From: a virus
Lineage: Duplodnaviria > Caudoviricetes
Length of the DNA: 64,000 bases
IMG/VR virus record: IMGVR_UViG_3300028797_000006
Coordinates: 54,403-118,402 of that record
Strand: one strand, 5' to 3'
Numbering within the stretch: the first letter of the stretch is position 1; each line of letters opens with the position of its first letter. Below are positions 126 to 32,343 of this stretch, one piece after another. The notes below the pieces were generated by a model, which did no database searches, had not been told where the DNA came from, and saw only the letters and a list, made by a program, of their open reading frames with translations. Made by a program: the position numbers and the translations under genes.

Positions 126-1418
126 TTAATGAATGTACATATTGAATAAAAGTTCAAATTGCTGCCAGTTTACGACAAACAGGTTATCTTCAGCTCTAGT
201 TAGCGCAACATAAGCAATATTCAAATCCTCAGTACAACTAATAGTTGTATCAATAACGATTACATTCTTATATTCAAGACCTTTAGCCTGATGAATTGTC
301 GAAGCCTCAAAGTATCCCGCATCAGTAATGTATTTAACTTGTTTGTTAGTTCTACAAAGAATCATAGGTCTATTACTCATAAACTTTTTAAACTCTTCAA
401 TCAAGTTAATTTTGTGTTCAATGCCGTTCTCCATTTTAATACTTCTACCAAATGGATTGACGACTGTTACACTACCACCAGGACCACGAGCGCAATTAAT
501 TGCACTAGCCCTTTTTCACATAATTTCAGTGATATAGCAATCTTCTTCCATCATTGCATTTTCGCGCTGTTCAAGATAAACAGTAGTGGCATAATCAATT
601 ATCTCTTGATAACTTCTATAATTACACATTAACTTATATTCTTCAAAGTCCTCTGTCTTATCGAATACTTCACCATCTGCACCTCTAAAACAGAAGATTG
701 ATTGCCAAGGATCTCCAACGAAGAATTTCTTTTTAGCATTAACCTTTTGGAATAATTCAAACTGCACTTCATCGACATCTTGATATTCATCGACAAAAAG
801 CGCATCAATATTATTTATTTCCTCGTCATAAGTATTGAGAACATTATAGAGGTAAAGAGGATAATCTGTGAAATCATAAAGTAAATTATCTCTCTTGTAA
901 CGAATATATCTGTTTTCAAGCGCCACAAGAGTTCTCTTATAATTATCCTTGATATCCATGTTCTTATTTCCGCTAATAAAAGAATAAAGAATATCAATAT
1001 TTATATTTTTAATCTTTGAATGAATTATATAATCATCAACTAACTCTTGAAGAATTGATTTAATTTGCCCTTCTTGAAGTATTTTAATCTTAAACCCGTA
1101 TTTAATTGCGAAATCATTAAGTAATGTGCGGGCTCATACGTGGATTGTAGTAACATCAACATCAAAGATACCCATTTGTTGAAGGCGAGTTTCCATTTCA
1201 GCACGGGCTGCGCGAGTATAGGTGATCGCGCAGATTCTATCATTTATGTTCTCAAAACGATAGGCTGAAACCGCACTTAATATTGAGAAAGTTTTTCCAG
1301 AGCCAGCAGGTGCGCGCACTAAAATATTATCACTCTTGGAAGTGACAACCTTATATTGTGACTCATCTAATTTATCTAATTTTAATGTAAAGTTGTTGGC
1401 TCTAGTGATTTTTTCCAT
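126..1418 (-). CDS. UvrD/PcrA-family SF1 DNA helicase (TGA=Trp, 430 aa)
   Basis: Three same-frame ORF pieces joined across TGA at 1134 and 516; Walker A APAGSGKT, VDEYQD, VGDPWQSIF.FRGAD, NYRS, TIHQAKGLE, YVALTRA. Confidence 0.92.
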
Positions 1419-1927
1419 TCTTCTAATCTCTTTTCATAATCAGCTTCAATATCTTCAAGATGTGGATCGGTTTCAATATATTTGGATAAGAAATCGGCTG
1501 TAGCCAAAGCATTATGCATAGAAAGTTTTGAATCTTCATTTGTATACATATCAAGCATTGAAGTTAAATTGTCGTCTCCTTCAACTTTTTTCTTCATCAT
1601 TTCAACAAATTTATCTTCATATGGTAAAGATTCAACTAAGTCTTGAAAATTAACAATTAAATCAAACTTATATTTCTTAGGCATGTTGCCAATAATAATT
1701 AAATCATTCTTTTCTTTTTCTGCTAAATCATAAACTTTTTCCGCGCTTAAAATACTGTAAAAAAGCGCGTATTCTCAATTCTTTGCTAACTTTGTAACTA
1801 TTGTATAGTCCATGAAAGAAGGCATTGAAAAGCAATTATCTTTAGCATGCGCAGTTAGTCCTTTATAGACACCTACGCCCATATATGTATTTTTTTCATC
1901 TAAAGGCATTAAAACTAAAATCTTCAT
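1382..1927 (-). CDS. hypothetical protein (TGA=Trp)
   Basis: MKILVLMP start at 1927 is in frame with the 1382..1684 ORF across one TGA. Confidence 0.75.
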
Positions 1928-1929
1928 AA

Positions 1930-2409
1930 TTAATCCTCCAACTCCTGACGAGCACGGACTGCAAGCGCATCAACATAAATATTTCATTTATTGTCTGCGT
2001 GTCCTTTGACTCGAATAATTTCAATATCGAATTTTTCTTTTAACTTAATATAAAGGGCAATAACTCTTCCCCATAAATCTTGGTTTTTAACTGGTTGGCG
2101 GTCAGAAGTGCGCCATCCGTTTTTTAACCACGTAACATATCATTTATCATTGAAAGTGCGTTCAACATAGGCACTATCGGTATAGATTTTTACTTTTGTA
2201 AAGCGTGTTTGAATTGTATTAATGTTTTCAAGTGCGGATAAAAGTGCCATAATTTCCATTCTATTGTTCGTGGAATATGGTTCATATCCTGTCTTTTCAT
2301 CAATAATTTGCCCGTCTTCAAGACAAATCGCGGCCCAACCGCCCATTTCAGTTTTAGAGGAGAAAGCTCCATCTGTATAGAACTCTAATAATCTACTTGG
2401 TAGCATCAT
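1930..2409 (-). CDS. rnhA: ribonuclease HI (TGA=Trp)
   Basis: YTDG, TNNRME, YTDSAY; read-through gives [14 protein letters not shown] and VKGHADNK(W)NIYVDALA. Confidence 0.92.
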
Positions 2410-2862
2410 CTTTTGAGTCCTCCTTTTCATCGCATAAAGTAAAGAATAAATCTTTATATTTAATCGTAAAATTAAAGACATCATTTACTGTCTTATAATT
2501 AACGGCTTTTTTCATTAAAGAACGACTAGTTTTTATACCCATTAAATTTGAAGGAACATCTAAACGCCATTCACGTTCTCTTCTATCAGATTGAGTTAAT
2601 AAACCGAAGAAAACCGCGCATCCAACGTTAACAATAGATAAGAAGTTTACTATTTCTTCATCTGTTGCGTTACCTTCACCTTCAATATCGACAATATAAT
2701 GAACTGCTAAAGGGTCTTGGGATATAATTTGAGATAATGCGGTTTCAAAAGCTTTTTTAGCTTCAGAAACAGCGCTATTAAAGTTAATCGTAGCGCTGAT
2801 TTCTTTTGTTGTATATTTAAAATCTTTAATAATTTTATTGTCTACTAAATTAATGAACAACA
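2393..2862 (-). CDS. hypothetical protein
   Basis: ORF overlapping both neighbours; likely start MLFINL. Confidence 0.65.
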
Positions 2863-3564: not shown

Positions 3565-5340
3565 ATGAATAATTCAAGTTATATTTGAAAAGATTTTACA
3601 AAAGAAGACTTAAAGGCTTGGATTTTAGCGAATACAGACATTAAAGACTGGAATCATTGCCATAATATAGAATTAGATGAACAACAATTAAAATCATTAT
3701 GTAGTGCAATTGGGTGCGTCAGTATAAGTCCAGAGAATATATGGATTTATTTTTCTGATACAGTCAGTCCGCAACAATGATGAATTGGTACTGAAGACGA
3801 TAGCGCGATTACATTAACTTTTCCTGATACTTGTAAAAAAGTTAAAGGAGAATCTTTTAATAACAATTTAAAAAGAGCAAAAACTCGAGGAGTTGAAGAT
3901 AATAGCGAAGAGGGAAATATTTTGATATTAAGAAATATCAGAAGTGTTAGTTCAGCTTCAGATGCTCGAGGATCATATTGTCAGACGCCAAATGAATATA
4001 CTTTTTTAAGTTATATAGGTTTTACTGATAATAATATTTCCGCAACAAGCACGACTAATGGAAGTAAATTATATACAAAATCTTATTTAACAACACTAGG
4101 AAACTACGGAATAAATGGTAAACAATTTAAAATTATTACTTACCTAGATAATCCACCAGTTTATAATGATAATGAAGGATATCATTTTTACTATAAACAA
4201 AATTATGGTAATAATGCAGATACAAATAATTCTAAAAAATATAGAGATTGAGCAATTAATAATACTTCGATGGATATTGTGTGACACAATTTTACGTCTG
4301 GAGGAGGGTCTACCTCATCTCCTACAGTTACTAATGTCACTGAACAAGGTTTTGATCTAATTATTGGTGGTTCAACAACTCATTATATTAAAAATGCTTG
4401 GCAAGATGTATATGTTCTTTGTAGAGAAGCACCTAGCTCATATAATGGATGATGATCAGATAATGGTAATCAACCTCATATAGCGAGCGAAAATGAAAGT
4501 TATGCAGAAATGTTATATAGAACATATGGAACTTATATGGGAATTTTTCATGTTGGACAACTTACAGATAATTGAACAATGCCATTAATTGTTATGACGC
4601 CAGGAAAAGGAGGAGATAACCCTAATGTAGATGCAGACTATATTATTGATTGATATTATCCAACAATGTCCTATAAAAAGAATAGTGATAATACATGATA
4701 TAATATTAATGATAATATTTGATTAAGAAACAAAACAGTAGACTGAAAATCGGAAACACAATGAATAAATTGTCCTCATCAAAATCAAACTGTAGGAATA
4801 GCCCATTATAGTTGAGGATTTGCAGCAAGAAAAAAGAATACAAATAGAAAACCAGTAGAGTATGATACGCATATACTTGGCCCTGATAGTGATTATGCTT
4901 ATAATCGTGGTCGTTGATATGCGGTAGAATTTGATACATCAGGAAGAACTTATTGTATACAGTTAAATGTTGGTTATTGATCAATAAAAGGAATAAGCGA
5001 AAGTATTGCAAGCTCAAAGAGTACTACATTAAATTTTTCTTCTCTGACAGCCTACCATATGAGTTATTGAAATAACACATGACATATGGGTCCTTATAGT
5101 TCACTACAAGCGATAGTTACCGCAGATAAATTATTTCCAGGCATTTTTAAAAATAAGACAGTAATTAATGAAGAATTTTATAAAAAGGGTGCTTTTGATT
5201 GCGACACAGGTTATGACAACGAAACATTGGTAACTTTAGGCATAAGATCAGATGAGAGTGAATATGGAAAATGTCTATTAAAATTTGAAGGGAATAATAA
5301 TAATGGTTATGCAGTTATTTTGATAGATAATAGATCATAA
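3565..5340 (+). CDS. large Asn-rich hypothetical protein, possibly virion-associated (many TGA=Trp, ~591 aa)
   Basis: GAGG RBS then ATG at 3565; fragments 3922..4251 and 5086..5340 are in the same frame, interrupted by TGA; terminator follows. Confidence 0.7.
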
Positions 5341-5844: not shown

Positions 5845-5941
5845 TGGCACGGGTTGTAGGACTCGAACCCACACCTACCGCTTTGGACACGGAATCTTTA
5901 CGGTTTTGAAGACCGCTGTGCTGCCATTACACTAAACCCGC
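5845..5941 (-). tRNA. tRNA-Trp(UCA) opal decoder with ~23-nt expanded variable region
   Basis: GCGGGTT/AACCCGT acceptor, G73, CCA; anticodon arm GCGGT-CT TCA AA-ACCGT; T-arm GTGGG TTCGAGT CCTAC; acceptor resembles the phage's tRNA-Trp(CCA). Confidence 0.9.
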
Positions 5942-5956: not shown

Positions 5957-5985
5957 AATATAGTTAAAGTATTTTTGTTTGTCAA
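5957..5985 (-). promoter_or_regulatory. sigmaA-type promoter for tRNA-Trp(UCA)
   Basis: TTGACA-N17-TATATT immediately upstream of the tRNA. Confidence 0.65.
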
Positions 5986-5986: not shown

Positions 5987-7717
5987 TTATTTTTCGAATG
6001 ATGATTTTTCTGGGAAATTAGTTTCAAAAAATTTATTTATATTAGCTCTTGTTATATCTTCTTTAATTGAAGAAACTTTTGTATCATTTAAACAGACCAT
6101 TTCTCTGTTCCTTACACAATCTCAAGGAGTATAACTATTTAATTCAAAATAATTAGATTTTTGATAAATTCTAGGTTTCTTTTTACTGACTCCTTGATAT
6201 TTCATACTATCAATAAACAATAAAGATGGAACGACATTCTTTTTATGTCTAAAACGTGAAACTTTCATAGCATCTCAAATTTCATCCATATATTTACTCA
6301 TAAAATCTATTTCATAAGATTTTAATCGTCCATCTGGTAAATGACTATAGTAAATATAGTTACTTCTTTGTCCGCAAATATTTTTTATTAAGAACTTAGT
6401 AGTATTATTTACAACAGAAGATCAAACGCCACTACCATTACCTCAATTTGCAGACATAGTTCCGGTTTCTCCATAATAAAGTGTATCACCTTCAAAGAAC
6501 ATATCCCTTGGAATAGGATTCATAAAATAAAAGTCATCATTACAAACAATAAAATGATTACTTAAATCTTTAATTCTATAATAGAACGTTTCAATAACTA
6601 ATGTACTAAAAGTTGGTAAAAACTCTTCAGGGATGAATTCATCATGATACACAATTCTAAGTTTCGGACATTCTCTATTTAATCATTCAGGTAATTGACT
6701 TTCTCTTTGAACAACTAAAAATACTTTATGTACTCAAGGACAATTTTTTTCAACACATCTAAATCAATATTTAAATACGCCTCAATCACGAGTTCTTTCA
6801 GTACCAAAAGCTTGAATATTAGAAGCATCTTGAATACCTTGATCAATTTCTAATTGTCTATATTTATTAAAATCTGCGCGTCAATTTTCATCATTAGGAT
6901 TAACTCATGGTACAATAATATCAATGTTTTCTCCGGTATTACAAGATTCTAATAAATCAATACGCTCTTCTTCAAACTGATTGAATCTCTCTAAATTAGA
7001 TGGCATATTTACTCCTTGAAAATCTAAAAATTCATTAATAGATAAATTTTTATCATCAATATAAAAATCTGCATTTGGTTTACCAAATCACAATTCGTCA
7101 TACTTAACGCCATTTTTATCTAATCAAGCACGTGTAATAGCATCATATTTAGCTATACGCTCTTCTATTGTTTTACAACTTTTTGCGCCACGAGCAGTAG
7201 AAAGAATAATCTTTCATCCTTGATCATGGAAACGATTAATTTGCTTAATTGTTTCAACAAGAGGATAAGAATTTTCAAAATCTCTATTTTTTGTGAGACA
7301 TAAGGTGTCATCAATATCTATACAAAGTGTGTTATATCTTTCTCTACTTTTAAGATATTCCTTTTCTTTTGTTGTGCTGATATTTGGGGTACGATCTAAA
7401 AAAACTACTTGAGCAAAAGTTTTTATACGATCAATATCATGGTATCCTTTATATTCTGAGCCACAAGCAAATATTTGGACATGTTTCAAATAACTAAATT
7501 TATCTTCTTGTGAGTAAAGAGGCACTACTTCATCGACATATCTAATGCTTAAAAGAATTTGTTTACGTTCTTCATATGAATAAAAAGGAATTTTGCCTTC
7601 AGGATTTACATTTACACCTACAACTAAATAATCGCCTAAAGCTTTAGCTCTGCGCAATAAACTAATATGTCCGTAATGTAGAATATCAAATGTTCCTGTT
7701 GTAAATACCTTTTTCAT
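5987..7717 (-). CDS. three-domain fusion: TagD-like cytidylyltransferase + HAD phosphatase + Stealth-family phosphotransferase (TGA=Trp, 576 aa)
   Basis: GTFDILHYGH; DIDDTL..STARG..FGKP..YIDD; IDIIVP(W)VNPND, P(W)VHKVFLV, HDEFIPEEFLPTFS, NDD; one frame with TGA interruptions. Confidence 0.85.
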
Positions 7718-8061
7718 TATCGACTCCTATGATATCTTTTTGGTTTTCTAGGTTTCTTTTCTTTTCTTTTATACGGGACTCAGCCTTTATTATATCCCGT
7801 TTCAATTGTATTCAACTTCTTAATCCAGTATTCCTCGCGCTCATTAAGTTTTGCTATTGGGCATAACTCAATTACATCTGCGCGAAAATTACGCCAGTCA
7901 GTCTTCCAATCTTTTTGCATATCTTTATTTGGATGATGACCCTTATAAAGTGCATTAATATGCTGTTTACATCTAAAATATACGTTCTGACTTTGCCCAA
8001 CGTATATTTTATTTTTCTTAAGGTTAGTTATTTTATATATTCCAGATGTTGGAAGCGTCAT
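7717..8061 (-). CDS. GIY-YIG nuclease (TGA=Trp)
   Basis: SGIYKI..YVGQS..R..E..GYN; read-through ends at a TAA overlapping the next ATG (TAATG). Confidence 0.85.
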
Positions 8062-8974: not shown

Positions 8975-9499
8975 CTATTTTCCCGAACTACCTAATTTTC
9001 CATCTTTGCGCGCACTTTTCTCGCAAGCTATATCTCATTCAGCTTCGCCAATAGGCATAACTTTTACTACTGGCATCTCAACAGGGATAAGTTGCGCGAT
9101 TGCCTTAGATGCAGGATAGAATAAAATTGGTCCTGTATAATCATCAGATACAAACATTTTATCTACATAAGCCTTATCTACTGAATTAGTGATAATAGCT
9201 GGATAAGGGTTGTCGTTTTTTAAACAAATGAAAATTTCTCCCCTATAGTCCTTATCACAAACACCGCAATGAACGTGGAGTCCTTTACTGCCAGTTGATC
9301 CGCGATCGAAGGCCATTAACCAATAAGGTCCTTCAATAACATATGCTAAATCAGTCTTAAACATATGTTGTGAATGTGGTGGCATAACAACATGAGTTTC
9401 TGTTGTATAGATATCATATCCGGCCGCATCAGGTGCCTTAGTTGGCGTAATAGCTAATGAGCTAAAATGACGCCATTTAATTATACATTTTTCTTTCAT
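8975..9499 (-). CDS. dut: trimeric dUTPase (TGA=Trp)
   Basis: AAGYDI, RGS, GVCDKDYRGEI, IAQLI; motif 5 RKDGKLGSSGK appears only after TGA read-through. Confidence 0.92.
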
Positions 9500-9508: not shown

Positions 9509-11146
9509 TTAATAATGAATTAAACTATCTCTATTCATATCAGAATTCTCTTCAATAAAATGATAGGTTGTTGGTGTAAATTCATAGGCAGGAATAATTA
9601 GCTTGCCTTCTGCTTCATATTCTCCTAACGCGCCTAAATTTAAACTATCTAACTGAGATAACTCTAATTGTCCGCCAACAATAGTACCATTATTTTTAGT
9701 ATAAACTGTTAACATTCCTCTACAAAAATCAGGTCAGTTTTCTTGTCTCATAAAATAAGCATTGATTTTGAAATCCTTATAAAGGTCTCATATTTTATTA
9801 TAAAAAGTATCTATAGACATTATTTTATAATTAACTTGTTCTATATCATCTAAGGATATAGTTTTTCTAAAATGTCCGTTTAGTGCTATATCTTCTATAG
9901 AACTTCCAACTGTATTTTGTAAATCTTCTTTTACCATGTTCGCACATCTACGAAAGAAGTTGTAACTTATATTTTTTAAAGTATTTTGCACAATTGAGTT
10001 ATCTGTAATAATTGCGCCGCCCTTAATTGCATCTGTTGCAATTAATTTTACTGTTTCAGATAGTGGTTTGATTGTTATAAAATTTCCAATACTAACACCA
10101 ACTTGAATCTTTTGAGATAATAAATTTTTAATTGTTTCAATTAAATTTTCATATTTATTTTTTATTAATTTACGTTCATTAAAATTTTTATTACTCATAT
10201 CTAACTCTACAGCCGTCTGTAATTTCTTTTTATTATCAATTAAAGTAATTCTAAATAAATCAATTAAACTCTTTACGCTTCCATGTGTTGTTTTCATTTG
10301 CACGAATTTAGTATGATTTTCAGGTCATTGTATTCTAAAACCATCTTGTGTATGAGCCATAACATCTTGCATCTCTCTAATAATTTTTTCAAGATGTTTT
10401 GAAAATCATCTGTCTATAATTCAATTAATTTGACTATTAGTAGTATCACCTGGTACTTTAGTAATACCAACAAAAACCTCTGCAATTAATTGTGCTAAAT
10501 TGTCTTCACGATTTTTCATACGCATTTCTGCTTGTAATTTTTCAGTGAAAACTTTTTGTAAATCTCTAAAAGCCTGAGTAGAACCTCGCTCAATAACAGT
10601 TCTCATTTGAGAAGGAGACATTTCTCTATTTAATACGTTTCCCTCAGTCGAAACCATTGCTTTATTTTGACCACCCATACTCATGGCTAATACATTATAT
10701 CCTAATTGTGTTCCATAATAATAAATATGCATTATTTCAGCAATATTTAAACGTTCTTGATCACTGTATTTTGTGCCATTTTGAAGCATATATGTTTCTT
10801 CACTATTAGCACGTTGTTTTTGACGAACTTCAAGTGTTGTATAGCTTGTTGTAAATCATTTCGCGGCAAAACGTTCAAAATCATTTTTGGGAATTCCAAA
10901 ATATGTATCATCATAGATTTCAATTACTATTTCATTTAAAGCATGTTGTAATATAAAAGATTGAAATTTTGGGTTTTCATAACTTTTATTACCAAAAAGA
11001 GACTCGTCCAATCATCCTTTGCTTCTTCCTCAAGCACCAGAAAAGTGGGCAAGCGCTCTTTTATACGTTCCTTTATCATTTGTCGCTTGTCCTATATATA
11101 ATGTTGTAGGGTCGTTTTTTGCATATATATGATAAATATAATTCAT
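9509..11146 (-). CDS. large protein with N-terminal GIY-YIG-like domain (TGA=Trp, ~545 aa)
   Basis: MNYIYHIY..LYIGQ..R..H..E..GYN; three same-frame ORF pieces. Confidence 0.65.
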
Positions 11147-13458: not shown

Positions 13459-13475
13459 CTAGTAGGAGAGAATTT

Positions 13476-18695: not shown

Positions 18696-18746
18696 TAAAA
18701 TTGACTGGAATACAGTTTAAAAATATACTATTGAAGGAAGAGTATT

Positions 18747-19694: not shown

Positions 19695-19696
19695 TT

Positions 19697-21844: not shown

Positions 21845-21903
21845 GATATAAAAATAATAATATAAACAAATTAAAAAGAGCTCAATTGAGCTCTTTTTTA
21901 GTA

Positions 21904-22017
21904 TCTAAGCCGGGAGTCATAGTTCATTAGACTGAGACTCACACCCCAGCATTTCAACTAGAGGTGAATCATATCTTGCGATATGACGCCCGGTTCCGCA
22001 TCGAGCACCGGCTTAGA
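21904..22017. ncRNA. putative multi-stem structured RNA
   Basis: Closing stem TCTAAGCCGG/CCGGCTTAGA enclosing three hairpins. Confidence 0.45.
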
Positions 22018-22022
22018 CGATA

Positions 22023-23711
22023 TTAATCATTTATAATGTAAGTTACTTCAATTGTTTTGAAACGAGTATTCCCGCTACCGCTTGAAGCAGTAATTGTTAC
22101 ACTTGTAGGTGGATCTGTTTCGGTATTAAACCAAACACTTGTAGCATTAGCGCCCTTCCAATCAAGAGTATCTACATCAGAAGAGAATGTTTTTTGTGCA
22201 GCGCTAACAACATAATTAATAGTTTTTATATAACCATCAATACCATCTGCTATATGAATAGTCATAGTGTTGTTGCCATATATACGGAGTTCTCCACCAT
22301 TTTTAAAGTATTTTGGTTGAGAAGATCCGCCACCTTTTCCGCATAGCATTTGAACGTTGCCATCACCAATATCTACTTCAATACCATCTAATACGGTATC
22401 TGCGTCATATATTGTAGAGAATGTAATTGATTCAGTATATTCAGTTCCACCGCCACCGCCACCAGTAATGGTAATTTCTTTTTCATCATAAGTACCGTCC
22501 TCACAAGTAGCACGGATTAATAACGTACCAGCACTGACACCAGTAATATCGCAGTAGAAGTGACCATCTTCTTCATAAGAATCCAATTCAACTTCACCGT
22601 CACCATCAATAATTTCTCAAGTCATTTCTTCTGGTAGAACAATACATTTAGCTTCTCAAGTAACAGTTTCATCCGCAGCAACACCACCAATACCAATAAT
22701 TTTAACTCTATGAATTGGTGCATCTTCAAGGTGAGTATATAAGACACCATATCTTATACCAACCTGATTGCTTGCATTGTCGAATCTAAAGCGAACCTTT
22801 TGCGCATAAACATCTTCAGGCAATCATCCTCTTAATCAGAAATCGCTAGATACTAGACCACTGTCTTCCCAGGTAACGCCGCCGTCTTCAGAATAATCTA
22901 AATGGACAGTTTGTTGTTTTCCGCCCCATTGATCAAAGCTAATTGAGATACCATCAATATAACGTCTCAATTCATCTGTTTCGATGATAAATGGACCTTG
23001 TTTCGTAACAGGTTCATTATTAATCGGTTGTTCTGGACCTTGATGCGAAGCAGTTAAATAAGCAACCGCATAACCGAAGTCAATTTCATGTTCAACATAA
23101 CCACTTGTCCATTCATCGAAATCTTCAATTTCTCTGAAGTTCATAATAGCTGAATTTTCATCAGGTTCATAATGAATATTTACATTATAAGTATAACTGT
23201 CGCCGATATCATAATAACTATCATAGTAAGTAACAGTTACACCTGTTGTTTGCCCTTCGGTTTGTTCACCAATATCTACACTAGAAGGTTCGACATATTT
23301 ACTTAAACTTTCTTTTGAATAAGAGGCATAGCAATCACCATCAAATTCAATTTCATCGCCATAGATATAATCTTTAGTCATATCTTTACAGGTGACTTCT
23401 ATTTCCATCGGCTTAACAGTGATATTATAAGAAGCTTCTAATCCCTTAAAATATGTATAAACAGGATAGCTTCCCGCCACTTCGATGTCCACATCAGACA
23501 AATCTACTTCTGCAAATTCGCTTACATCTGCACTACCAATTGTCTCGGCACGTGCTGGATCATAATTATCTTTAATCCAAATAGTTCCATCACCTCTATC
23601 AGTAGCTACAGTAGACATCCATTCATATGGATCAATTTCTGTTGTATTAACTTTAATCTTGCCTTTAATTTCGGCAGAGCTTTCCACTTTAATATTGTTT
23701 TCTAATGGCAT
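22023..23711 (-). CDS. acidic Ig-like (Big-type) multidomain surface/virion protein (TGA=Trp, ~562 aa)
   Basis: TKDYIYGD..VTVTY and GVSAGT..IRAT..DGT Ig-type modules; one frame across TGAs. Confidence 0.65.
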
Positions 23712-24064
23712 GCCTCTACCTCCGCTTTCTTTTTGGCGAAGATTGTAACGATAGTTCCTTCATGATCGATGAATTTCGCGCAATAAATATATTTGCCTAT
23801 TGGGAACTTACTACTAATCTCTTCTGTAAAATCAAGATTAACGGAGTTACCTTCAATATTTGAGAAACGGAATTCATGAACAAGTTCTTTACCAATAGAT
23901 GTATAGAACTCGAATACAATTTCATCATTTTCATCGAAAATTAATGGTTCATCGTCTTTTGTTAACGAAATACCTCACTCAATGGTGAAGGTATTATTAA
24001 CGTATCATTTCAAAGTCTCACCTTCGAATCGCGGACTTTGTTTAGCAGGTTTAATTTCTATCAT
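23702..24064 (-). CDS. hypothetical protein (TGA=Trp)
   Basis: GGAGG RBS, MIEIKP start, two in-frame TGA; absent from the code-11 ORF track. Confidence 0.7.
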
Positions 24065-24256
24065 AAACGCATACCTCCATTAATCATAATTAGTATAAGA
24101 TTAGACAAGAGATAAGTCAAAATTTATAGTATGAGCGACGGGATTACTAAAGAGAAGCGCGGTTTTTGAAGGGTAATGAGCTTCTCAATCAATTTTATTA
24201 TATAGTTGAAATTGCATCTTTCTATAAAAATCAATATAATACTTTAGGAGATTATT

Positions 24257-26872
24257 ATGATCGAAGATTTAACTAATACTGAATGATTGATTAAAAGTAA
24301 TGCTACAATAGTAGAAACAACTGTAAGTTATGCAATTAATTTTGAAAGCAATAAAGAAGATTATTCTAGTATAACTTTTCTTCTTGGCGGAAATAATATA
24401 CATTTCTTACAATATGATCAAAAAGATGTAGCCTTTACTAACAATAGTTATTATGTTTTTCCTCCTGTCAATCAAGATTATCGTTTAATTAAAATTACTG
24501 GCGGCGAGGATGCAGTTAATATAAATTTAATTATTTGATTAACTACAAATGCAAAAAGAGTCCACAGTTATGATTTATTAGATAATAATATCGTAAGAGA
24601 AGATAAAAAGACTTCTTATTTAGTTGGTGTAAATGAATATAATGAAGTTGACACATCTCTTTATACAAAAGTTACATATACACCAAAATGACCATATATT
24701 ATTTTTGAAAGTAAAACTAGTTTTACTTTAGAAGTTTATGATCATATTAAACATTGAGATGGTATTTTAGAGTATTCTACAGATAGAAAACACTGGAATA
24801 CTTGAAGTGGCACAACTATTAGTTCTGCTTATAATAATATTAAAGAAAAACAATGTATTTTTGTTCGTGGATTGAATAATACAGTTATTACAGGATATTC
24901 AGGAGAATATAGATGAGTTTTAGATGGTTCACAAATAGAATGTCATGGTAATATCGAGGCTTTATTAGATTATAGAAAGATGCAATTATCTCATCCAATA
25001 ATTGGGGATTATTGTTATGCTTGTATGTTCTACAGATGTACAAGTCTTACAACAGCCCCAGAACTTCCAGCTGAAACTTTAGCTAATTATTGTTATGAAT
25101 CTATGTTTAGAGGATGTACAAGTCTTACAACAGCCCCAGAACTTCCAGCTGAAACTTTAGCTAATTATTGTTATGAATCTATGTTTAGAGAATGTACAAG
25201 CCTTACAACAGCCCCAGCATTACCAGCTGAAACTTTAACACAACTTTGTTATGAACATATGTTCCAGGGGTGTACAAGTCTTACATCAGCTCCAGAGTTA
25301 CCGGCTGAAACTTTAGCCGACAACTGCTATGAATATATGTTTGCAGGATGCACAAGTCTTACATCAGCTCCAGAATTACCTGTTGAAACTTTAGCTAACA
25401 ATTGTTATCGCGGTATGTTTAGTGGTTGTATAAAACTTGAAGAAGCACCAGAACTACCTGCTAGAAGAATAAATGATTATAGCTATGCTTTTATGTTTGA
25501 AGGATGTACTAATCTTGTAGAGGCACCAGAATTGCTTGCTACAGTTGTAGGGAGTAACAGTTATGAAGGTATGTTTAAGGGATGTACAAGTCTTACAATG
25601 GCTCCAGAATTATCAGCTGAAACTTTAGCCGCTTATTGTTATAGTCGTATGTTTGAAAATTGTACGAGCCTCATATCTGCTCCAGAATTATCAGCTGAAA
25701 CTTTAGCTAACAATTGTTATCAATATATGTTTGCAGGATGTACAAGTCTTACATCAGCTCCAGAGTTACCAACTGAAACTTTAGTTAACGCTTGCTATCA
25801 ATATATGTTTCAAGGATGTACAAGTCTTACTACAATTCCAACATTACCTGCTGAAACTTTGGCTACTTATTGCTATAATTATATGTTTAATAAATGTACA
25901 AGTCTCGTGTCGGTTCCAACTTTACCGACTGAAACTCTAGCTCAAGGTTGTTATCGAGGTATGTTTAATAAATGTACAGGTCTTATACTGCCCCCAACTC
26001 TACCAATCGAAACTTTAGCTAACAATTGTTATCAATATATGTTTGAAGGATGTACAAGTCTTACATCAGCTCCTGCTTTACCTGCTGAAACTTTAGCAGA
26101 TTATTGTTATGAATCTATGTTTAGGGGATGTACAAGTCTTACATCAGCTCCAGAGTTACCAGCTGAAACTTTAGCTAAATATTGTTATGCACATATGTTT
26201 GCAGGATGTACAAGTCTTACAATAGTTTCAACCTTACCTGCTGAAACTTTAGTTCAATATTGTTATCAATATATGTTTAGTGGATGTACAAGTCTTGCAA
26301 CGGCTCCTGTTTTACCTGCTGAAACTTTAGCTTACAATTGTTATGAATCTATGTTTGAAGGATGTACAAGTCTTACATCAGCTCCTGCTTTACCTGCTGA
26401 AACTTTAGCCGCTTATTGTTATGAATCTATGTTTAGTGGATGTACAAGTCTTACAACTGCTCCAGAGCTTCCGGCTGAAACTTTAGCTAATTACTGTTAT
26501 CAATATATGTTTCAAAGATGTACAAGTCTTACATCAGCTCCTGAATTACCAGCTGAAACTTTAGCTAATTACTGTTATCAATATATGTTTCAAGAATGTA
26601 CAAGCCTTATAAAACTACCTTATTTACGATGCAAGAACTTGACAGCTGGTTGCTATGGATATATGTTTCAAAAGTGTCATTCACTTCAACTTATTCAGTC
26701 GATAGCGCCAAGGGGTCAATACATATATCCTTATAGTATCCCACCTACTAGAGACGGCACTAGTAGCCAATCATCTGCATTAAGAGGTATGTTTGACTAT
26801 ACTGGAGGTATTTTTGTGGGTACGCCAGTAATTAATGAGCAATATTATACAAATAATGAACCAATTGGTTAG
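24257..26872 (+). CDS. BspA-like leucine-rich-repeat protein (~871 aa; N-terminus TGA=Trp)
   Basis: More than 20 tandem 26-aa repeats CTSLTSAPELPAETLANYCYxxMFxG. Confidence 0.85.
25000..26690 (+). repeat. 78-bp coding tandem repeat
   Basis: tgtacaagtcttaca...gctgaaactttagc...tgttat...atgttt repeated. Confidence 0.9.
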
Positions 26873-26886
26873 AATAGGAGTCTAAT

Positions 26887-27108
26887 ATGAACAAAATTAT
26901 CGCACAAAATGTCTCAAACAAAATCTTCAATGAACCAACTGACTTTGAAAGATGTAACATTACAAACTGCACCTTTAACGCAGAGTGTTATTGTGACAGA
27001 TGCAACATCATTAATTGCACTAACACATATAACTGCATCTGTGAAAAAAGCAATATCATCAATGAAGATGAAGAAGAGAGACCAGAAGAAGAAATTATTG
27101 AAGCTTAA
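26887..27108 (+). CDS. small Cys/Asn-rich protein
   Basis: RBS; CNITNC/CNIINC repeats; terminator after. Confidence 0.6.
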   Translation: MNKIIAQNVSNKIFNEPTDFERCNITNCTFNAECYCDRCNIINCTNTYNCICEKSNIINEDEEERPEEEIIEA

Positions 27109-27233
27109 AAAAGAACCCAATGAGGTTCTTTTTAAATGGACTCGCTAAAGGGATAATGCGGTTTTTGAAGCTCTATGACCTTCTTGAAGCCGCACCTTTG
27201 TTGTTTACGTAGTAAACAAAAAAGGGAGCATCT

Positions 27234-27491
27234 TTAGATGCTCTCTTTCTTTTTCTCCCAAGGCTCTTCGCCTTGAATTGTTTTAATTATATCTTCTGCG
27301 ACCCAGTCGGCCAAGAACCATTTTACCTTGACCTCAAAGTCATCAAATTCTCTAGCCCAATGTTCTTTGAGCTTATCTATTTTTTCTCTTGGGATATTGT
27401 GCTTAGTCATCAATTCGTCCAAGCTATCAAAATCAATCTCAAGAGTTGCGTGCACAATTTGTCGTGTTTCTAGAGTTTTTATATTTTCCAT
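27234..27491 (-). CDS. hypothetical protein
   Basis: ORF with RBS. Confidence 0.65.
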   Translation of the reverse strand: MENIKTLETRQIVHATLEIDFDSLDELMTKHNIPREKIDKLKEHWAREFDDFEVKVKWFLADWVAEDIIKTIQGEEPWEKKKESI

Positions 27492-27641
27492 TTAGTGCAC
27501 TCCTTAAAGCATATGTCTGGACGGAACTTTATATAAGCTAATTCTTACTACATCATTCTGTTCTGCAGGCTTATCAAAAGTAACTCTTGCAGTACGCTTA
27601 ATATGTTTAGCTTTCCTTTTTATAAGTTTTATCCTGTTCAT

Positions 27642-27920
27642 CTAGCGTACCTCATATTCTCTAACGTAGGCGTATTCTTCTACATTAAGTTCATCATCAA
27701 TTTCGTCTTTTCTAGCTACTGCGCGATCATAGTCCGCATAGACAGAATCAAGACGAGTAGAGGTGACTTTAGTTTCATAATAATCATCATAGCCGTCATC
27801 TTCATCCCAGCAAAGATCGTTAGATACTCTTTCTATTGTATCAACTAATACACAATAGACAACACGTTTAAGTTGACCGCCATTATAAGTGATAGTATCT
27901 TTTATATTGACGGTGCCCAT
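27642..27920 (-). CDS. hypothetical protein
   Basis: Coupled to upstream ORF. Confidence 0.65.
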   Translation of the reverse strand: MGTVNIKDTITYNGGQLKRVVYCVLVDTIERVSNDLCWDEDDGYDDYYETKVTSTRLDSVYADYDRAVARKDEIDDELNVEEYAYVREYEVR

Positions 27921-28180
27921 TAATCTAATATCTCCTCTACTGTTTGTTTAAGAAGATTTTTATGATAGCAATAATGCCATCCGCCGCCTGGAATCATATC
28001 ACCTGGATTATGGATGCCAGATACATAATAGCGGCCGTAAGTATCGTCAAGAGAAGCAAAGGTTCTAGCGATGAACTTAGCTGCCTTGAACTCATTACAG
28101 ATACAAAGAGTATGGACTTTATCGTTCACAATCTCGTATACCTGATATTGCGCAAATTCTTCTACTTCATACTTATACAT
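27920..28180 (-). CDS. hypothetical protein
   Basis: ORF with RBS. Confidence 0.65.
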   Translation of the reverse strand: MYKYEVEEFAQYQVYEIVNDKVHTLCICNEFKAAKFIARTFASLDDTYGRYYVSGIHNPGDMIPGGGWHYCYHKNLLKQTVEEILD

Positions 28181-28181
28181 A

Positions 28182-28403
28182 TTAAATACTCCTTACTATA
28201 TCCCAGCAAGCGTGGATTCCCAATAAAAATATTGGACCCAAGAATATATAAGTTGTTAATACAAATAAACACCAAGGACTAAAGAAAATAGCAAAGGTAA
28301 TTGCCACAGCTAATGGAGCTAATGATATTAGTATCATAAGAGCTAATAATAAACAATAACAATATTTTTCTAAAGCGGTTTCAAATTTCATTTTTATTTT
28401 CAT
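28182..28403 (-). CDS. small membrane protein
   Basis: Two hydrophobic segments. Confidence 0.6.
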   Translation of the reverse strand: MKIKMKFETALEKYCYCLLLALMILISLAPLAVAITFAIFFSPWCLFVLTTYIFLGPIFLLGIHACWDIVRSI

Positions 28404-28413
28404 ATTAGTCTCC

Positions 28414-28656
28414 TTAAGCTACATCACAAATTAAATCAACTACATCTATCGGATCGTCGATTTCACCATGATAATACATATTAAGTATGTCATTAATTTT
28501 TTCTAATTTCTTTTTATTCTCTTCCGCCTTTTTAAGATATGTTTCCATAAAGACTCTAAATTCTGCATCTTTAGGTGCTTTTAATTCATCCATAAATAGA
28601 CTAAAGGCTTCTAATGGTTTTAACATTTTACCCATAATTATCTCCTTATAAGTCAT
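28414..28656 (-). CDS. hypothetical protein
   Basis: ORF downstream of ligase. Confidence 0.6.
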   Translation of the reverse strand: MTYKEIIMGKMLKPLEAFSLFMDELKAPKDAEFRVFMETYLKKAEENKKKLEKINDILNMYYHGEIDDPIDVVDLICDVA

Positions 28657-29758
28657 TTCTTAATCTAACCACGTAAGGATGGCGAAGTCTGCCCAAATCG
28701 TTCGTTTGCATTGCCTTGACGACTGCATATAATTCGCCATGCTCAATCATCTCTTGCGCTTCGGCTGTTGCAAGCCATTCTCTATCTTCATCAGTTAGAC
28801 CGCTTGTAACGTCACAAGTTGTATTATTATATTCGACTGTGATGCCGTTCGCCCAATGATAGAAGTAAGGCTTAGTCACAGGATAACCTGGTATAGTTTT
28901 TCTATCGACATCTGGTTTAATTTCCACTAGCTCATTAATCTCGTATAATTCGCCTGTTTCTGGATCTTCACTATTTTCACCAGTAAAGATTTCCCAATAA
29001 GGCCATGTATCTTCGCAATCACCTTCATACCATTTCTTTGGTGGTAAAGCAGCGATTACTTTTAATTCCATTTCAGGAAGTGATTGCTTAAGCTTTAATG
29101 TTTTCCAAGCTGTTCTGGTGCCTGGCATATATGGATTGTCTTTTCTTTGAATGACTAATCCCTCTCCACCTAAACCAATTATCTCATCGGCTGCCTCCGC
29201 GAAGTCAATGCCATTATAGAGGATAGGTGTTCTCTTAAAATATTCTGCCTCATAATCTTGCGGGACTAAACCTGTGACTTCCTCCGCATATTCGCAAATA
29301 CGCTTTTCATAAGGTGTATTGGTTAGGTCTGTACCCGCGAACATTAATATATCAAATACAAAGGCATAAAGAGGATTATTCTTTTGTCTTTCTATTGCCT
29401 TTTCTGGTAAGCATCTAAGGATTGTGCCGACTGTATTCGCATTAGTGCCGCGTTCTTTAAAACATAGCTCTGCGAGAACTACTGTGTTATCTGGCCAGTT
29501 ATCCATTTCCGCTACAAGATGCGGAACTTTGGCTGTATAGTCTCCGTAGACACCAGTCACTTTACTGATACTGCGGCTACGAATTAAGTTTTTTCCTTTT
29601 GTATAATGGATGCACATTGACCAATCGCCATCGCGCTTTTCGGTCGCAATATAAAGGTTGTCTTTGTCTTCGATCATTTCTCTTCTTTTTGGACAATCAT
29701 TTTCATTATTATAGTACTTCATTGGCTCCATCATTGCGAAGTCATCTATTGTTCTCAT
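28646..29758 (-). CDS. ATP-dependent DNA ligase
   Basis: EKRDG, LAEL, FVFDIL, EGLVI, LKLK, LRHP motifs. Confidence 0.9.
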   Translation of the reverse strand: MRTIDDFAMMEPMKYYNNENDCPKRREMIEDKDNLYIATEKRDGDWSMCIHYTKGKNLIRSRSISKVTGVYGDYTAKVPHLVAEMDNWPDNTVVLAELCFKERGTNANTVGTILRCLPEKAIERQKNNPLYAFVFDILMFAGTDLTNTPYEKRICEYAEEVTGLVPQDYEAEYFKRTPILYNGIDFAEAADEIIGLGGEGLVIQRKDNPYMPGTRTAWKTLKLKQSLPEMELKVIAALPPKKWYEGDCEDTWPYWEIFTGENSEDPETGELYEINELVEIKPDVDRKTIPGYPVTKPYFYHWANGITVEYNNTTCDVTSGLTDEDREWLATAEAQEMIEHGELYAVVKAMQTNDLGRLRHPYVVRLRNDL

Positions 29759-29842
29759 ATTTTTATTCCTTTTTAATCTATATTATTATAGTAGACTTAT
29801 ATGGCTTAAGCAAGAAAAAAGAGAGTAAAGCCTCTCTTTTAT

Positions 29843-30328
29843 TTATTCTTCTGCATGTTTAATCTTATGAACAATAGGTTCAGAGAAGCCATTACCCATA
29901 ACAATAATTGTTTCTGAGCTCCAATCATCTCTAATTTTTAAGATTCCTTCACGTGCACCCAATTCCACAAGTGCATTAGTAAACCATTTAATAATATGAT
30001 TGACTTCAGTTTCTCCGCCATAATCACGAAGATCCCCTTCAATTGCGATTAAAGAACCTTCTCCAAGGACATTTTCATTCGCCTCAGAAGTATCTACAAA
30101 ATACCATTCAAGACTTCCTTCACTGCCCATAGGAATTCCGCAACCTTTTTCATTATCATCAAAAGCTTTACACCAGACATTTTGATGGAAATCTTCCCAT
30201 TCAGGTGAACGATACTTAAATTGTAGTCCGTCTTTCCAAAGGATAGGTTTACCCAAAATCTTTTCAAGTTCTTCTGGTTTTCTATATGAATATTGTATTG
30301 TTCCTATAGCGTGTGTCCATTGACTCAT
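29843..30328 (-). CDS. hypothetical phage protein
   Basis: MSQWTH..PMGSEGSL..GDLRD. Confidence 0.7.
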   Translation of the reverse strand: MSQWTHAIGTIQYSYRKPEELEKILGKPILWKDGLQFKYRSPEWEDFHQNVWCKAFDDNEKGCGIPMGSEGSLEWYFVDTSEANENVLGEGSLIAIEGDLRDYGGETEVNHIIKWFTNALVELGAREGILKIRDDWSSETIIVMGNGFSEPIVHKIKHAEE

Positions 30329-30330
30329 AG

Positions 30331-30624
30331 TTAGTTCTCCTTATAATAACTTTCTAAAGCGCACATAATATTGTAAAGATTTAATACAATTTTTCTATTT
30401 GTTTCACTTAAAGGTACGCCGTCGCAGTCTACACCAGAATCAAGTTCTTTTTTATATTCTGCTATTCTCCATTCGATACCTTTTTTAAGTTCTTCAAAGG
30501 CTTTAAGTGATTTTTCAATAGTATCTAAGTTAGTTAAATCTATAATACTTCCATATGTAGTATTACCTTCTACTTTAATTAATTTGGCTTTAATCTTATA
30601 AAAAGCTTCTAATTCTTTATTCAT
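30331..30624 (-). CDS. hypothetical protein
   Basis: ORF in operon. Confidence 0.65.
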   Translation of the reverse strand: MNKELEAFYKIKAKLIKVEGNTTYGSIIDLTNLDTIEKSLKAFEELKKGIEWRIAEYKKELDSGVDCDGVPLSETNRKIVLNLYNIMCALESYYKEN

Positions 30625-31066
30625 ATTTCTTTAACTCTTCCATAAGGTCATTATAATAGTAATCATCTGTGTCTAATAACCCGGCAATCAAAAAGCCTGT
30701 GCCAAACCATTCTTTATTCTTTGTTCGTAAGAAATAACATTCAGTAGGTTCATCACCTTTTTCATAACGATAAGTGCTGCCATCTTTATTGACCATAGTA
30801 GCTTTATAAATAATATGTTGTTCAGGAGCATATAACCAATAACAGCTATCTATCTCATATGCTAAATCCTCAAGAAGTTCTTCATCAACTTCTTCATTAT
30901 CTAGGTCGATAGCTTTATCAATGCGCCAATAATCTAAACGACTTAAGCGGATTTTTCCGTCATCAAAACATTTATAAATTTTGCCGACTTCTGGTGCTGG
31001 TGAATCGTGTCCTTCACCACAGTTAATTACTACAACACCACCATCATTCTTTTGTTTGAATTTCAT
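30617..31066 (-). CDS. hypothetical protein
   Basis: ORF with promoter and RBS. Confidence 0.7.
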   Translation of the reverse strand: MKFKQKNDGGVVVINCGEGHDSPAPEVGKIYKCFDDGKIRLSRLDYWRIDKAIDLDNEEVDEELLEDLAYEIDSCYWLYAPEQHIIYKATMVNKDGSTYRYEKGDEPTECYFLRTKNKEWFGTGFLIAGLLDTDDYYYNDLMEELKKYE

Positions 31067-31155
31067 AATCTTATATCCTTTTTAATCTATATTAGTATAG
31101 CAGACTTTTTAGATTAAGGCAAGTAAAAAGCCCTTTTTAAGGGCTTATTTATTGA

Positions 31156-32343
31156 TTACTTATATTGTGCGCCTCAAACTACGAATCGTTTTGCAGAAGA
31201 GCCAGTGAATGTAATTGTTGTTTCTTCACTAATAGATAATGTTATCTCTTGTAAGTAATTATCTGCGCTTCCATTTAAAGTGAAAGGATTATTATTAGCT
31301 ATACCGGAATCTGAAGTAAGAGCGATAGCTTCATGAGTAATACCGCTAATATTGAGTGAAAGGCTATTTACTCCATTCCAAGCAGCAGCATAGAATTTTA
31401 GTTCAGTTGCAGTTCCAGGAACTGTTATTGACATTGCGCCGCCTTTTTTAGAGGTGCCCACCTTAATGCCATTAATACCATTTACAGTACAAGAAGTGCC
31501 TTCTGTTACACCAGTCATAGTCGCATCTTGCCAAGAACCAGTAGACTCTTTCCAATGAGCTGTAAGTGTTATATCTTCAGTAATTGTCAATGGAAATGAG
31601 ACCTCTGTTTCTCCAATATACCAAGCATCAAATTCTTTTCCGGTTGGAGCAGTAAATTCAGAGTGAGTAGGAGTTGTAATTTGTTCATTTTCAATTACTC
31701 TTATTGAATCTTTTGTTCCTGACCCCTCGCCGGCGCTGAATGATACTGTATATTTAATTACAGGTGCTGGCTTATTATAGGCAAAGTTTTCTAATTGTGT
31801 ACTTCTATCCTCATCAGTCCAGTTACATCTTGATTCCGCAGCACCAAATTCATCTTGTGTATAAAAATAAATTGGTCCATAAGAATCTCCAACATTACCA
31901 GAATATGCTCTGCCATAATCATTTGAGAAGCTATATAATAATGTTCTTGAGCCTTCATGTTGTTTTAATAATCCACTTGATAAATCTCAAGTTGAACTAG
32001 TGTTTTTTAAGGCAGTATCAGAAGTACCTTTATAACCTAAATTATATGAACCGCGTTGAATAGTAACTGTTGTATTAGTAGTAAAAGTAACTGTAAATAG
32101 TGCTTCTGATGGGTCATTGGTTGTTTCCATTTTATCTCCACCAGTATAGGTTAAGTAATGTTCTTCATCATCAATAAGTGTGCGGCAATAAAATTCATTT
32201 ACATAATCACTACTTGTCGCAACATAATCTCTAGTTAATGCCAATGTATGAAACTCTGGCTTAGCTATAAATACTGTCGTAAGCGCGGTAATAGACACAC
32301 TAACGACAGAAAGTAAAGTTCATTTTTTATTAGTTGTAGTCAT
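31156..32343 (-). CDS. secreted or membrane-anchored protein with InlB B-repeat (TGA=Trp, ~395 aa)
   Basis: Signal-like MTTTNKK(W)TLLSVVSV; YTVSF..APTGKEFDAWY..EDITLTAHW. Confidence 0.7.

What the first reader, a model, noticed from the sequence alone, without database searches (positions are those of the whole stretch)
126..32343. Partitioned stop-codon reassignment: TGA=Trp concentrated in replication and structural genes
Seen: TGA falls at conserved Trp positions. Read-through restores dUTPase motif 5, the RNase H C-terminus, the helicase and a TAATG gene coupling at 7717. Trp-rich genes in 27-64 kb (ligase, lipase, phosphoesterases) use only TGG; exceptions are 31156-32343 and 53339-53776, and most genes there end in TAA or TAG. 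Established: recoded phages can gate late expression with suppressor tRNAs. Inference: early genes are code-neutral and later genes depend on tRNA-Trp(UCA), suggesting a standard-code host or a broad host range.
Basis: partly seen in the sequence, partly recalled or inferred. Interest (0 to 1): 0.75.

Follow-up and report, generated by a model that had tools for sequence, protein, structure and literature searches.

The report
Phage reads TGA as tryptophan late
A 118-kb cattle-rumen phage reads the stop codon TGA as tryptophan through its own tRNA but keeps TGA out of its early and core DNA-replication genes, which is a clean new example of a pattern already published for gut phages, not a new phenomenon.

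Summary
The window is the second half of a complete 118,402-bp phage genome. TGA means Trp: with TGA masked, it aligns to TGG in 30% and to TGA in 34% of orthologue columns. The phage tRNA(UCA) is a paralogue of its own tRNA-Trp(CCA).

Usage is sharply partitioned. Late, accessory and lysis modules have 153 TGA against 90 TGG. Early plus replisome modules have 19 against 201 (Fisher p=1.6e-36).

One correction to the title: the core replisome (GyrB to DnaE), just upstream of the window, has 0 TGA in 55 Trp codons. Two relatives show 0/49 and 0/50, one of them with GC3 of only 0.15, so AT content does not explain the pattern. Tail genes use TGA at about the neutral A/G level, and head genes are intermediate.

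No RF1, RF2 or TrpRS gene is present. Consensus host-type promoters precede the TGA-free units and the suppressor tRNA.

This matches the TGA-recoded 'Agate' phages of Borges et al. (bioRxiv 10.1101/2021.08.26.457843), so it is a new member of a known kind. The scan noted it before on this same genome (e1-5945087).

The possibly new part lies elsewhere. The suppressor's variable arm copies the Trp anticodon loop, and a tRNA-Ile(UAU) in the same genome carries a GAU-loop arm.

The parts
5845..5941 (-). Suppressor tRNA-Trp(UCA), 97 nt, 7/5 acceptor/T stems, G73, with a 27-nt variable region that forms a stem and a 7-nt loop GUCCAAA
   Evidence: ARAGORN and Rfam. It shares the acceptor and anticodon stems with the phage tRNA-Trp(CCA). 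The anticodon arm and variable region are 100% identical in relative G001, while the other stems covary.
5957..5985 (-). Near-consensus host-type promoter TTGACA-17-TATATT for the suppressor tRNA
   Evidence: Promoter scan; sequence read.
44390..44463 (-). Phage tRNA-Trp(CCA), paralogue of the suppressor
126..1418 (-). UvrD-like helicase, 430 aa, 2 TGA / 2 TGG; split into three ORFs under code 11
1930..2484 (-). RNase H, 2 TGA / 4 TGG; TGA115 lies on a conserved Trp
3565..5340 (+). Trp-rich protein of unknown function, 591 aa, 18 TGA / 4 TGG
   Evidence: No Pfam or PHROG match.
5987..7717 (-). Cytidylyltransferase-Stealth fusion (sugar-phosphate transferase), 576 aa, 13 TGA / 0 TGG
7717..8061 (-). 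GIY-YIG endonuclease; TGA94 is read through to a TAA that overlaps the next ATG (TAATG at 7717)
8975..9499 (-). dUTPase; TGA155 precedes motif V
9509..11146 (-). Unknown protein, 545 aa, 8 TGA / 0 TGG
12663..26872 (.). Variable block of mostly unknown genes, probably fibre or host-recognition proteins. Total 31 TGA / 28 TGG. It includes the TGA-free 542-aa gene at 13476-15104 and the BspA-type LRR protein at 24257-26872 (6 TGA).
   Evidence: Atlas leads to beta-helix tailspikes are weak.
7..35 (-). Perfect TTGACA-17-TATAAT promoter firing leftwards into gyrB. It heads the TGA-free replisome block, which lies just before the window (genome 38311-54322).
26869..64000 (-). Early region: small genes, ligase, phosphoesterases, 30 tRNAs and a ROOL RNA. 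It is essentially TGA-free and holds five perfect consensus promoters, all on the minus strand.
31156..32343 (-). Exception: a secreted or anchored protein with 3 TGA / 5 TGG inside the early region
53339..53776 (-). Exception: a 145-aa protein with one mid-gene TGA. Orthologues in G001 and G002 also carry exactly one TGA, and the sequence after it is conserved.

Best explanation
This is a virulent phage of cattle-rumen Bacillota, about 118 kb, that switches the infected cell from the standard code to TGA=Trp with one phage tRNA.

Shown:
- TGA is a Trp codon.
- The only recoding gene found is a tRNA-Trp(UCA) derived from the phage's tRNA-Trp(CCA).
- TGA is never needed as a stop.
- TGA use falls into tiers: none in the replisome operon and almost none in the early region; 1-2 per gene in accessory DNA enzymes; about half of Trp codons in head and packaging genes; 81-84% in tail, baseplate and fibre genes, which is about the neutral A/G level.

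Inferred:
- The host terminates at TGA, so any gene that must be translated before the suppressor accumulates is kept TGA-free by purifying selection.
- Very abundant head proteins are also kept TGA-free, because suppression is costly.
- Elsewhere TGG drifts to TGA under AT pressure.
- Late and lysis proteins therefore cannot be completed until the tRNA is abundant. That timing effect may be a by-product rather than a selected gate.
For: TGA = Trp:
- With TGA masked as X, it aligns to TGG 30%, TGA 34%, F/L/Y 5-6% each and Gly 2%, against a background Trp frequency of 1.5%.
- It falls on conserved Trp in RNase H and NrdD.
- TGA and TGG swap between orthologues, for example in dUTPase.
- The suppressor shares its stems with tRNA-Trp(CCA) and has G73.

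Partition:
- Module counts with Fisher p=1.6e-36. The K/E/Q A-ending bias predicts 59 TGA in the replisome block against 3 observed, and 101 in the early region against 16.
- Most of the 16 early-region TGAs lie upstream of the true starts.
- Replisome 0/55, 0/49 and 0/50 in three genomes whose replisome proteins are 50-79% identical, one of them with GC3 0.15. Tail genes 46/9, 51/12 and 41/8. Head genes 16/19, 13/26 and 18/15.

Host-type expression of the TGA-free units:
- All six perfect TTGACA-17-TATAAT sites are on the gene strand, five in the early region and one upstream of gyrB. G002 has the same before gyrB and dnaE. The suppressor has TTGACA-17-TATATT.

Other support:
- No RF-1, PCRF or TrpRS domain in G000, G001 or G002.
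- All 118 terminase matches are Bacillota phages.
- The pattern matches the published Agate phages, including a recoded tail protein next to the lysis cassette and a recoded TM lysis protein.
Against: - The host is not identified, so its code and RF2 status are inferred only.
- No time-resolved expression data exist. 'Early' rests on promoters, gene content and analogy.
- The structural operon also has a good sigma-70-like promoter (TTGCCA-17-TATAAT at genome 3702).
- The suppressor has a strong host-type promoter, so a sharp temporal switch is not evident.
- No +4 context bias marks competition with RF2.
- GC3 correlates with TGA use in this genome, although not in G002.
Confidence: 0.8

Rival explanations
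1. Selected gate: in-frame TGAs in late and lysis genes are positively selected to block premature translation. This is the regulatory reading of Borges et al., and it is not exclusive with the best explanation.
For: - The TM protein beside the holin has 4 TGA / 1 TGG, and the tail-fibre gene upstream of the lysis genes has 5/0.
- The w53339 family keeps exactly one TGA in all three genomes inside TGA-free surroundings.
- Borges reports the same families as significantly TGA-biased.
Against: - The TGA share in tail genes (81-84%) is at or below the neutral K/E/Q A-ending share (85-95%), so there is no excess.
- TGA shows no 5' positional bias within genes.
- TGA and TGG swap freely between orthologues (30 mixed of 82 Trp-Trp columns).
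- The holin itself has 0 TGA, and the recoding of single genes varies between relatives (g2321 family: 6/4, 0/7, 8/2).
Confidence: 0.25
2. The host itself uses code 4 (for example a Mollicute), and the TGA/TGG bias only tracks AT content or expression level.
For: In this genome GC3 alone predicts TGA use well (nll 242 against 225 for module), and late genes are more AT-rich.
Against: - In G002 the replisome has GC3 0.15 and a K/E/Q A-ending share of 0.88, yet 0 TGA / 50 TGG (P=1.7e-46).
- The module term stays significant after GC3 and A-bias are included (nll 235.3 to 211.4).
- A code-4 host gives no reason for total exclusion across 12 genes in three genomes.
- The phage carries its own UCA tRNA.
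- Terminase relatives infect standard-code Bacillota.
Confidence: 0.03
3. Mosaic origin: the TGA-free blocks were recently acquired from standard-code phages and have not yet accumulated TGA.
For: The DnaE is SPbeta-YorL-like (36% identity), and the modules differ in GC3.
Against: - The block is syntenic and TGA-free in three genomes that have diverged to 50-79% protein identity.
- Each copy has been ameliorated to its own genome's GC3 (0.28, 0.25, 0.15). That is ample time for TGG to TGA transitions if they were neutral.
Confidence: 0.03
4. TGA encodes something other than Trp. ARAGORN labels the tRNA as tRNA-SeC, which would mean selenocysteine. Other options are Gly (code 25), or Ser through SerRS recognition of the long variable arm plus G73.
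For: ARAGORN labels the tRNA SeC. The tRNA has a long variable arm and G73, as tRNA-Ser and tRNA-Sec do.
Against: - The aligned residues are Trp, then F/L/Y. Ser and Gly are 2% each, and Cys is not among the ten commonest aligned residues.
- The tRNA has 7/5 stems, not the 8/5 of bacterial tRNA-Sec.
- It is a paralogue of tRNA-Trp(CCA).
- 13-23 TGAs per gene is incompatible with SECIS-dependent Sec.
Confidence: 0.02

Closest known systems
TGA-recoded 'Agate' phages of animal guts (Borges et al., bioRxiv 10.1101/2021.08.26.457843; later Nat Microbiol 2022)
   Same: - Genomes of about 127 kb from cattle, pig and tortoise gut, with TGA=Trp and a suppressor tRNA.
- Replication machinery in the standard code, structural and lysis genes recoded, and TGA lost as a stop.
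- The tail protein next to the lysis cassette and a TM lysis protein are strongly recoded.
   Different: - Clade membership could not be tested, because no Agate sequences are held.
- Added here: absolute exclusion replicated in three genomes, a neutral TGA level in tail genes, TGA-free putative head proteins, consensus promoters before the TGA-free units, and the tRNA's anticodon-loop-like variable arm.
TGA-recoded Jade phages with a code-change module (tRNA-UCA + TrpRS + RF1)
   Same: They have the same reassignment. A phage tRNA-Trp(UCA) was shown to insert Trp at UGA (PMC12636597).
   Different: This phage and G001 have no TrpRS or release factor, so the tRNA must be charged by the host enzyme.
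TAG-recoded crAss-like and Lak phages (code 15)
   Same: They show the same logic: early genes are code-neutral, late genes are recoded, and the phage encodes a suppressor tRNA.
   Different: They differ in the stop codon (TAG), the amino acid (Gln) and the host phylum (Bacteroidota).
Phages of Mycoplasma and Spiroplasma (hosts that use code 4)
   Same: TGA=Trp.
   Different: There the host already reads TGA as Trp, so no partition is expected. Here 0 of 154 replisome Trp codons are TGA.

Membership tests
Stop-codon-recoded phage (code 4) of a standard-code host, in the sense of Borges et al. | In-frame TGA in conserved genes, and coding density restored under code 4 | tested here: met
Stop-codon-recoded phage (code 4) of a standard-code host, in the sense of Borges et al. 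| TGA aligns with Trp | tested here: met
Stop-codon-recoded phage (code 4) of a standard-code host, in the sense of Borges et al. | Phage-encoded suppressor tRNA for the recoded stop | tested here: met
   tRNA(UCA) at 5845-5941.
Stop-codon-recoded phage (code 4) of a standard-code host, in the sense of Borges et al. | Early and replication genes compatible with the standard code; structural and lysis genes recoded | tested here: met
Stop-codon-recoded phage (code 4) of a standard-code host, in the sense of Borges et al. | The recoded codon is no longer used as a terminator | tested here: met
   All called genes end in TAA or TAG. The candidate TGA stops have conserved downstream sequence.
Stop-codon-recoded phage (code 4) of a standard-code host, in the sense of Borges et al. 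| The host uses the standard code | not testable with these tools
   Inferred from TGA exclusion and from Bacillota-phage relatives. The host was not identified.
Agate clade | The large terminase falls inside the Agate clade | not testable with these tools
   No Agate sequences are held. The nearest cultured terminases are at most 35% identical.
Agate clade | Genome of about 127 kb, animal gut, TGA-recoded, with a recoded tail and TM lysis protein | tested here: met
   Genomes of 118 and 130 kb from a bovine gut metagenome.
tRNA-Sec / selenocysteine decoding | 8/5 (or 9/4) acceptor/T-stem architecture and sparse SECIS-dependent UGA | tested here: not met
   The tRNA has 7/5 stems. Up to 23 TGAs occur per gene.
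Code 25 (TGA=Gly) | TGA aligns with Gly | tested here: not met
   Gly is 2% of aligned residues.

The most novel reading that the evidence does not exclude
The code switch needs no phage synthetase because the suppressor carries a decoy.

The structure:
- The variable arm of the suppressor is a stem closed by a 7-nt loop N-U-C-C-A-A-A, a copy of the tRNA-Trp anticodon loop.
- This could present the C34-C35-A36 identity element to the host TrpRS while the real anticodon (UCA) reads TGA.

Support from the suppressor itself:
- The arm is 100% conserved between G000 and G001, while the other stems covary.
- Its stem covaries across 46 unique phage tRNA(UCA) genes: 33 distinct stems, 3.70 of 4 positions paired against 2.17 in partner-shuffled controls.
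- In a scan that did not require the loop, 28 of 66 UCA tRNAs had it exactly. Seventeen had short variable loops, and most of the remainder were true tRNA-Sec or near variants.

Support from a second tRNA:
- The tRNA-Ile(UAU) of the same phage (38185-38279) has a variable arm with loop C-A-G-A-U-A-A, which is the canonical Ile anticodon GAU.
- Other phage tRNA-Ile(UAU) genes have the same loop on covarying stems.

I found no paper describing this.
Probability: 0.45. Interest if true: 0.85.

Novelty: new member of a known kind. Interest (0 to 1): 0.38.

Why it matters
The partition itself confirms a published model, with unusually clean numbers:
- TGA is totally excluded from 12 replisome genes in three diverged genomes.
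- Tail genes use TGA at the neutral level.

This argues that the pattern is made mainly by selection against TGA where the suppressor is absent or too costly, rather than by selection for a gate.

Practically, such genomes must be annotated with code 4, or half of the late genes appear broken.

The part that could open something new is how a single tRNA, without a phage TrpRS or release factor, recodes a standard-code cell. The anticodon-loop copy in the variable arm, seen again in tRNA-Ile(UAU), is a directly testable answer, and it could be useful for engineering orthogonal suppressors.

Tried and rejected
- RF2 competition in the +4 context: the base after TGA does not differ from that after TGG or after all sense codons (p=0.45 and 0.66).
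- Positional bias of TGA within genes: none (p=0.54).
- Release factor or TrpRS genes: none in three genomes. One sub-threshold PCRF hit in G001 lies inside a 456-aa open frame on the strand of the tail genes.
- Theta or HDV-like ribozyme beside the suppressor: nothing in Rfam.
- Identity of the putative major head protein (genome 10228-11241):
  - No Pfam match, and a PHROG of unknown function.
  - No PDB sequence hit.
  - The AlphaFold model from three sequences was poor (pLDDT 46.6) and was not searched.
  - 'Head protein' therefore rests on gene order only.
For 13476-15104 it gave only weak leads.
- Close relatives among deposited phages: none.
- Metatranscriptome contigs cover 12651-14917 identically in two studies. 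Contigs cannot rank expression or exclude DNA carry-over, so this is only a hint that the TGA-free 542-aa gene is highly expressed.
- The genome-contig scan for the tRNA pattern was mostly chance hits and true tRNA-Sec genes whose variable-arm loop holds UCCAAA. Pattern-selected sets are therefore biased, and it gave no host for this phage.
Full report
**What the DNA is.** The window is bases 54403-118402 of a complete 118,402-bp phage record with a 127-bp terminal overlap. It comes from a bovine gut metagenome. It carries 31 tRNA genes and a ROOL RNA. All 118 terminase matches among deposited phages are phages of Bacillota, at 35% identity or less. The DnaE-type polymerase is nearest to SPbeta YorL at 36% identity.

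**Code.** ORFs of at least 100 aa cover 57% of the genome under code 11 and 80% under code 4. The gain is confined to genome 0-36 kb and 55-80 kb, the latter being window 0.6-25.6 kb.
- With TGA masked as X, reciprocal-best orthologues from two relatives place TGA opposite TGG in 30% of columns and opposite TGA in 34%. F, L and Y follow at 5-6% each, and Gly and Ser at 2% each. Background Trp is 1.5%. The relatives are G001 (130 kb, complete) and G002 (73 kb), with 25-82% protein identity (replisome proteins 50-79%).
- TGA sits on the Trp conserved in solved RNases H and in NrdD.
- The tRNA at 5845-5941 has anticodon UCA, 7/5 stems and G73. It shares its acceptor and anticodon stems with the phage tRNA-Trp(CCA).
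- ARAGORN's 'SeC' label comes from the long variable arm.

All check out.
- The UvrD-like helicase is reassembled from three fragments.
- The RNase H C-terminus is restored.
- dUTPase motif V lies after TGA155, which is TGG in G001.
- The GIY-YIG gene extends to the TAATG overlap at 7717, with a conserved tail.
- Ligase, lipase-like and phosphoesterase genes use only TGG. TGAs apparently at the 5' ends of several early ORFs lie upstream of RBS-backed starts.
- The two named exceptions are real recoded genes.

**The partition.** TGA/TGG counts by module:

| Module | TGA/TGG |
|---|---|
| Structural operon, genome 3.7-33.5 kb | 67/33 |
| Lysis-side genes | 8/7 |
| Replisome-side operon, 36-54.3 kb | 3/77 |
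| Window 0.1-12.4 kb | 47/22 |
| Window 12.6-26.9 kb | 31/28 |
| Early region | 16/124 |

- The test across six modules gives p=4.9e-31. Late against early gives p=1.6e-36.
- The three TGAs in the replisome-side operon all lie in the C-terminus of one unknown gene whose orthologues are recoded too.
- From GyrB to DnaE there are 0 TGA in 55 Trp codons. These are GyrB, GyrA, Sak annealing protein, DnaB, primase, RecJ and DnaE.
- The title's 'replication' is therefore misleading. The TGA-bearing DNA enzymes in the window are accessory ones with 0-2 TGA each.
- The heavy users are a cytidylyltransferase-Stealth fusion (13/0), two unknown proteins (18/4 and 8/0) and the tail proteins (for example 23/2 in a 1746-aa protein).

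**Is it only AT content?** No.
- In the TGA-free genes, Lys, Glu and Gln codons still end in A 72-76% of the time. That predicts 59 and 101 TGAs where 3 and 16 are seen.
- The module term remains after GC3 and A-bias are fitted.
- Decisively, G002 has GC3 0.15 in its replisome and still shows 0/50. G001 shows 0/49.
- Tail, baseplate and fibre genes show 46/9, 51/12 and 41/8, which is about the neutral expectation. Head and packaging genes are intermediate.
- The putative major head protein and its neighbours are TGA-free in all three genomes.
- In structural genes TGA and TGG swap freely between orthologues.

**Timing evidence.**
- All six perfect TTGACA-17-TATAAT sites lie on the minus strand. 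Five are in the early region and one is in the gap between the helicase and gyrB.
- G002 has perfect sites before gyrB and dnaE.
- The suppressor has its own TTGACA-17-TATATT.
- This fits transcription of the TGA-free units and of the tRNA by unmodified host polymerase. The structural operon also has a good promoter, however, and no expression time course exists.

**Machinery.** No release factor or TrpRS domain is found in any frame of the three genomes, and no ribozyme lies beside the tRNA.

**Comparison with the literature.** Borges et al. describe TGA-recoded Agate phages of about 127 kb from cattle, pig and tortoise guts. [quoted passage not shown] TGA is lost as a stop, and a tail protein next to the lysis cassette and a TM lysis protein are recoded. 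The same features are present here: a fibre gene with a Peptidase_S74 chaperone domain (5/0), a TM protein (4/1) beside a holin. Decoding of UGA as Trp by phage tRNA-Trp(UCA) has been shown experimentally for Jade phages, with their own TrpRS. The finding is therefore a new member of a known kind.

**What may be new.**
- The suppressor's anticodon arm and its whole 27-nt variable region are identical in G000 and G001, while the acceptor, D and T stems carry compensatory changes.
- The variable arm is a short stem with the loop GUCCAAA, which is the Trp anticodon loop.
- Across 46 unique phage tRNA(UCA) genes the stem covaries.
- In a scan that did not require the loop, it was the commonest architecture.
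- The tRNA-Ile(UAU) of this phage has a variable arm with loop CAGAUAA, the canonical Ile anticodon. Other phage tRNA-Ile(UAU) genes repeat this on different stems.
- A decoy anticodon arm that keeps synthetase identity while the real anticodon changes would explain why no phage TrpRS is needed.
- I found no publication of it.
- It is untested, and the pattern-selected sets are biased.

Noticed in passing
window 5845-5941 (-), with loci L031-L150: The suppressor tRNA's variable arm copies the Trp anticodon loop (N-UCCAAA on a covarying 4-6-bp stem). The arm is recurrent in phage tRNA(UCA) genes. A phage-type copy also lies in a 1.48-Mb scaffold of Bacteroides neonati MS4 (L203).
   Followed up: partly
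window 38185-38279 (-), with loci L282-L301: tRNA-Ile(UAU), 95 nt, has a long variable arm whose 7-nt loop CAGAUAA holds the canonical Ile anticodon GAU. Eight other viral-contig tRNA-Ile(UAU)-type genes (one mislabelled by ARAGORN) show the same loop on different, complementary stems.
   Followed up: partly
window 39002-39596 (-): A full-length ROOL RNA (Rfam RF03087, 222 bits) lies between the two tRNA blocks, just downstream of a perfect consensus promoter at 39668.
   Followed up: no
genome 54322-54402, just before window base 1, downstream of the promoter at window 7-35: The gyrB leader contains a hairpin, ACACCTATATAGGTGT, followed by a T-run, lying between the perfect promoter and the RBS. 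It looks like an intrinsic terminator or attenuator in front of the TGA-free replisome operon.
   Followed up: no
window 53339-53776 (-): This early-region gene keeps exactly one mid-gene TGA in all three genomes, at the same Trp in G000 and G002 and 27 codons upstream in G001. Early in infection it would yield an 80-aa N-terminal product, and later the full 145-aa protein with a Lys/Glu-rich tail.
   Followed up: partly
genome 2321-3253 (-), before the window: This protein has an N-terminal TM segment, a coiled coil and a C-terminal GIY-YIG domain. Its recoding differs between relatives: 6 TGA here, 8 in G002 and 0 in G001.
   Followed up: partly
window 126-1418 (-): The nearest solved relatives of the UvrD-like helicase are Gabija GajB proteins (E about 1e-21), nearer than UvrD, PcrA or Rep.
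   Followed up: no
window 5987-12405 (-): A cluster of cell-envelope-type sugar enzymes lies in a phage: a cytidylyltransferase-HAD-Stealth fusion, a lipoate-ligase-like protein and a GT2 glycosyltransferase. G001 has a different set of five TGA-rich genes of about 280 aa at the same place, just after its suppressor tRNA.
   Followed up: no
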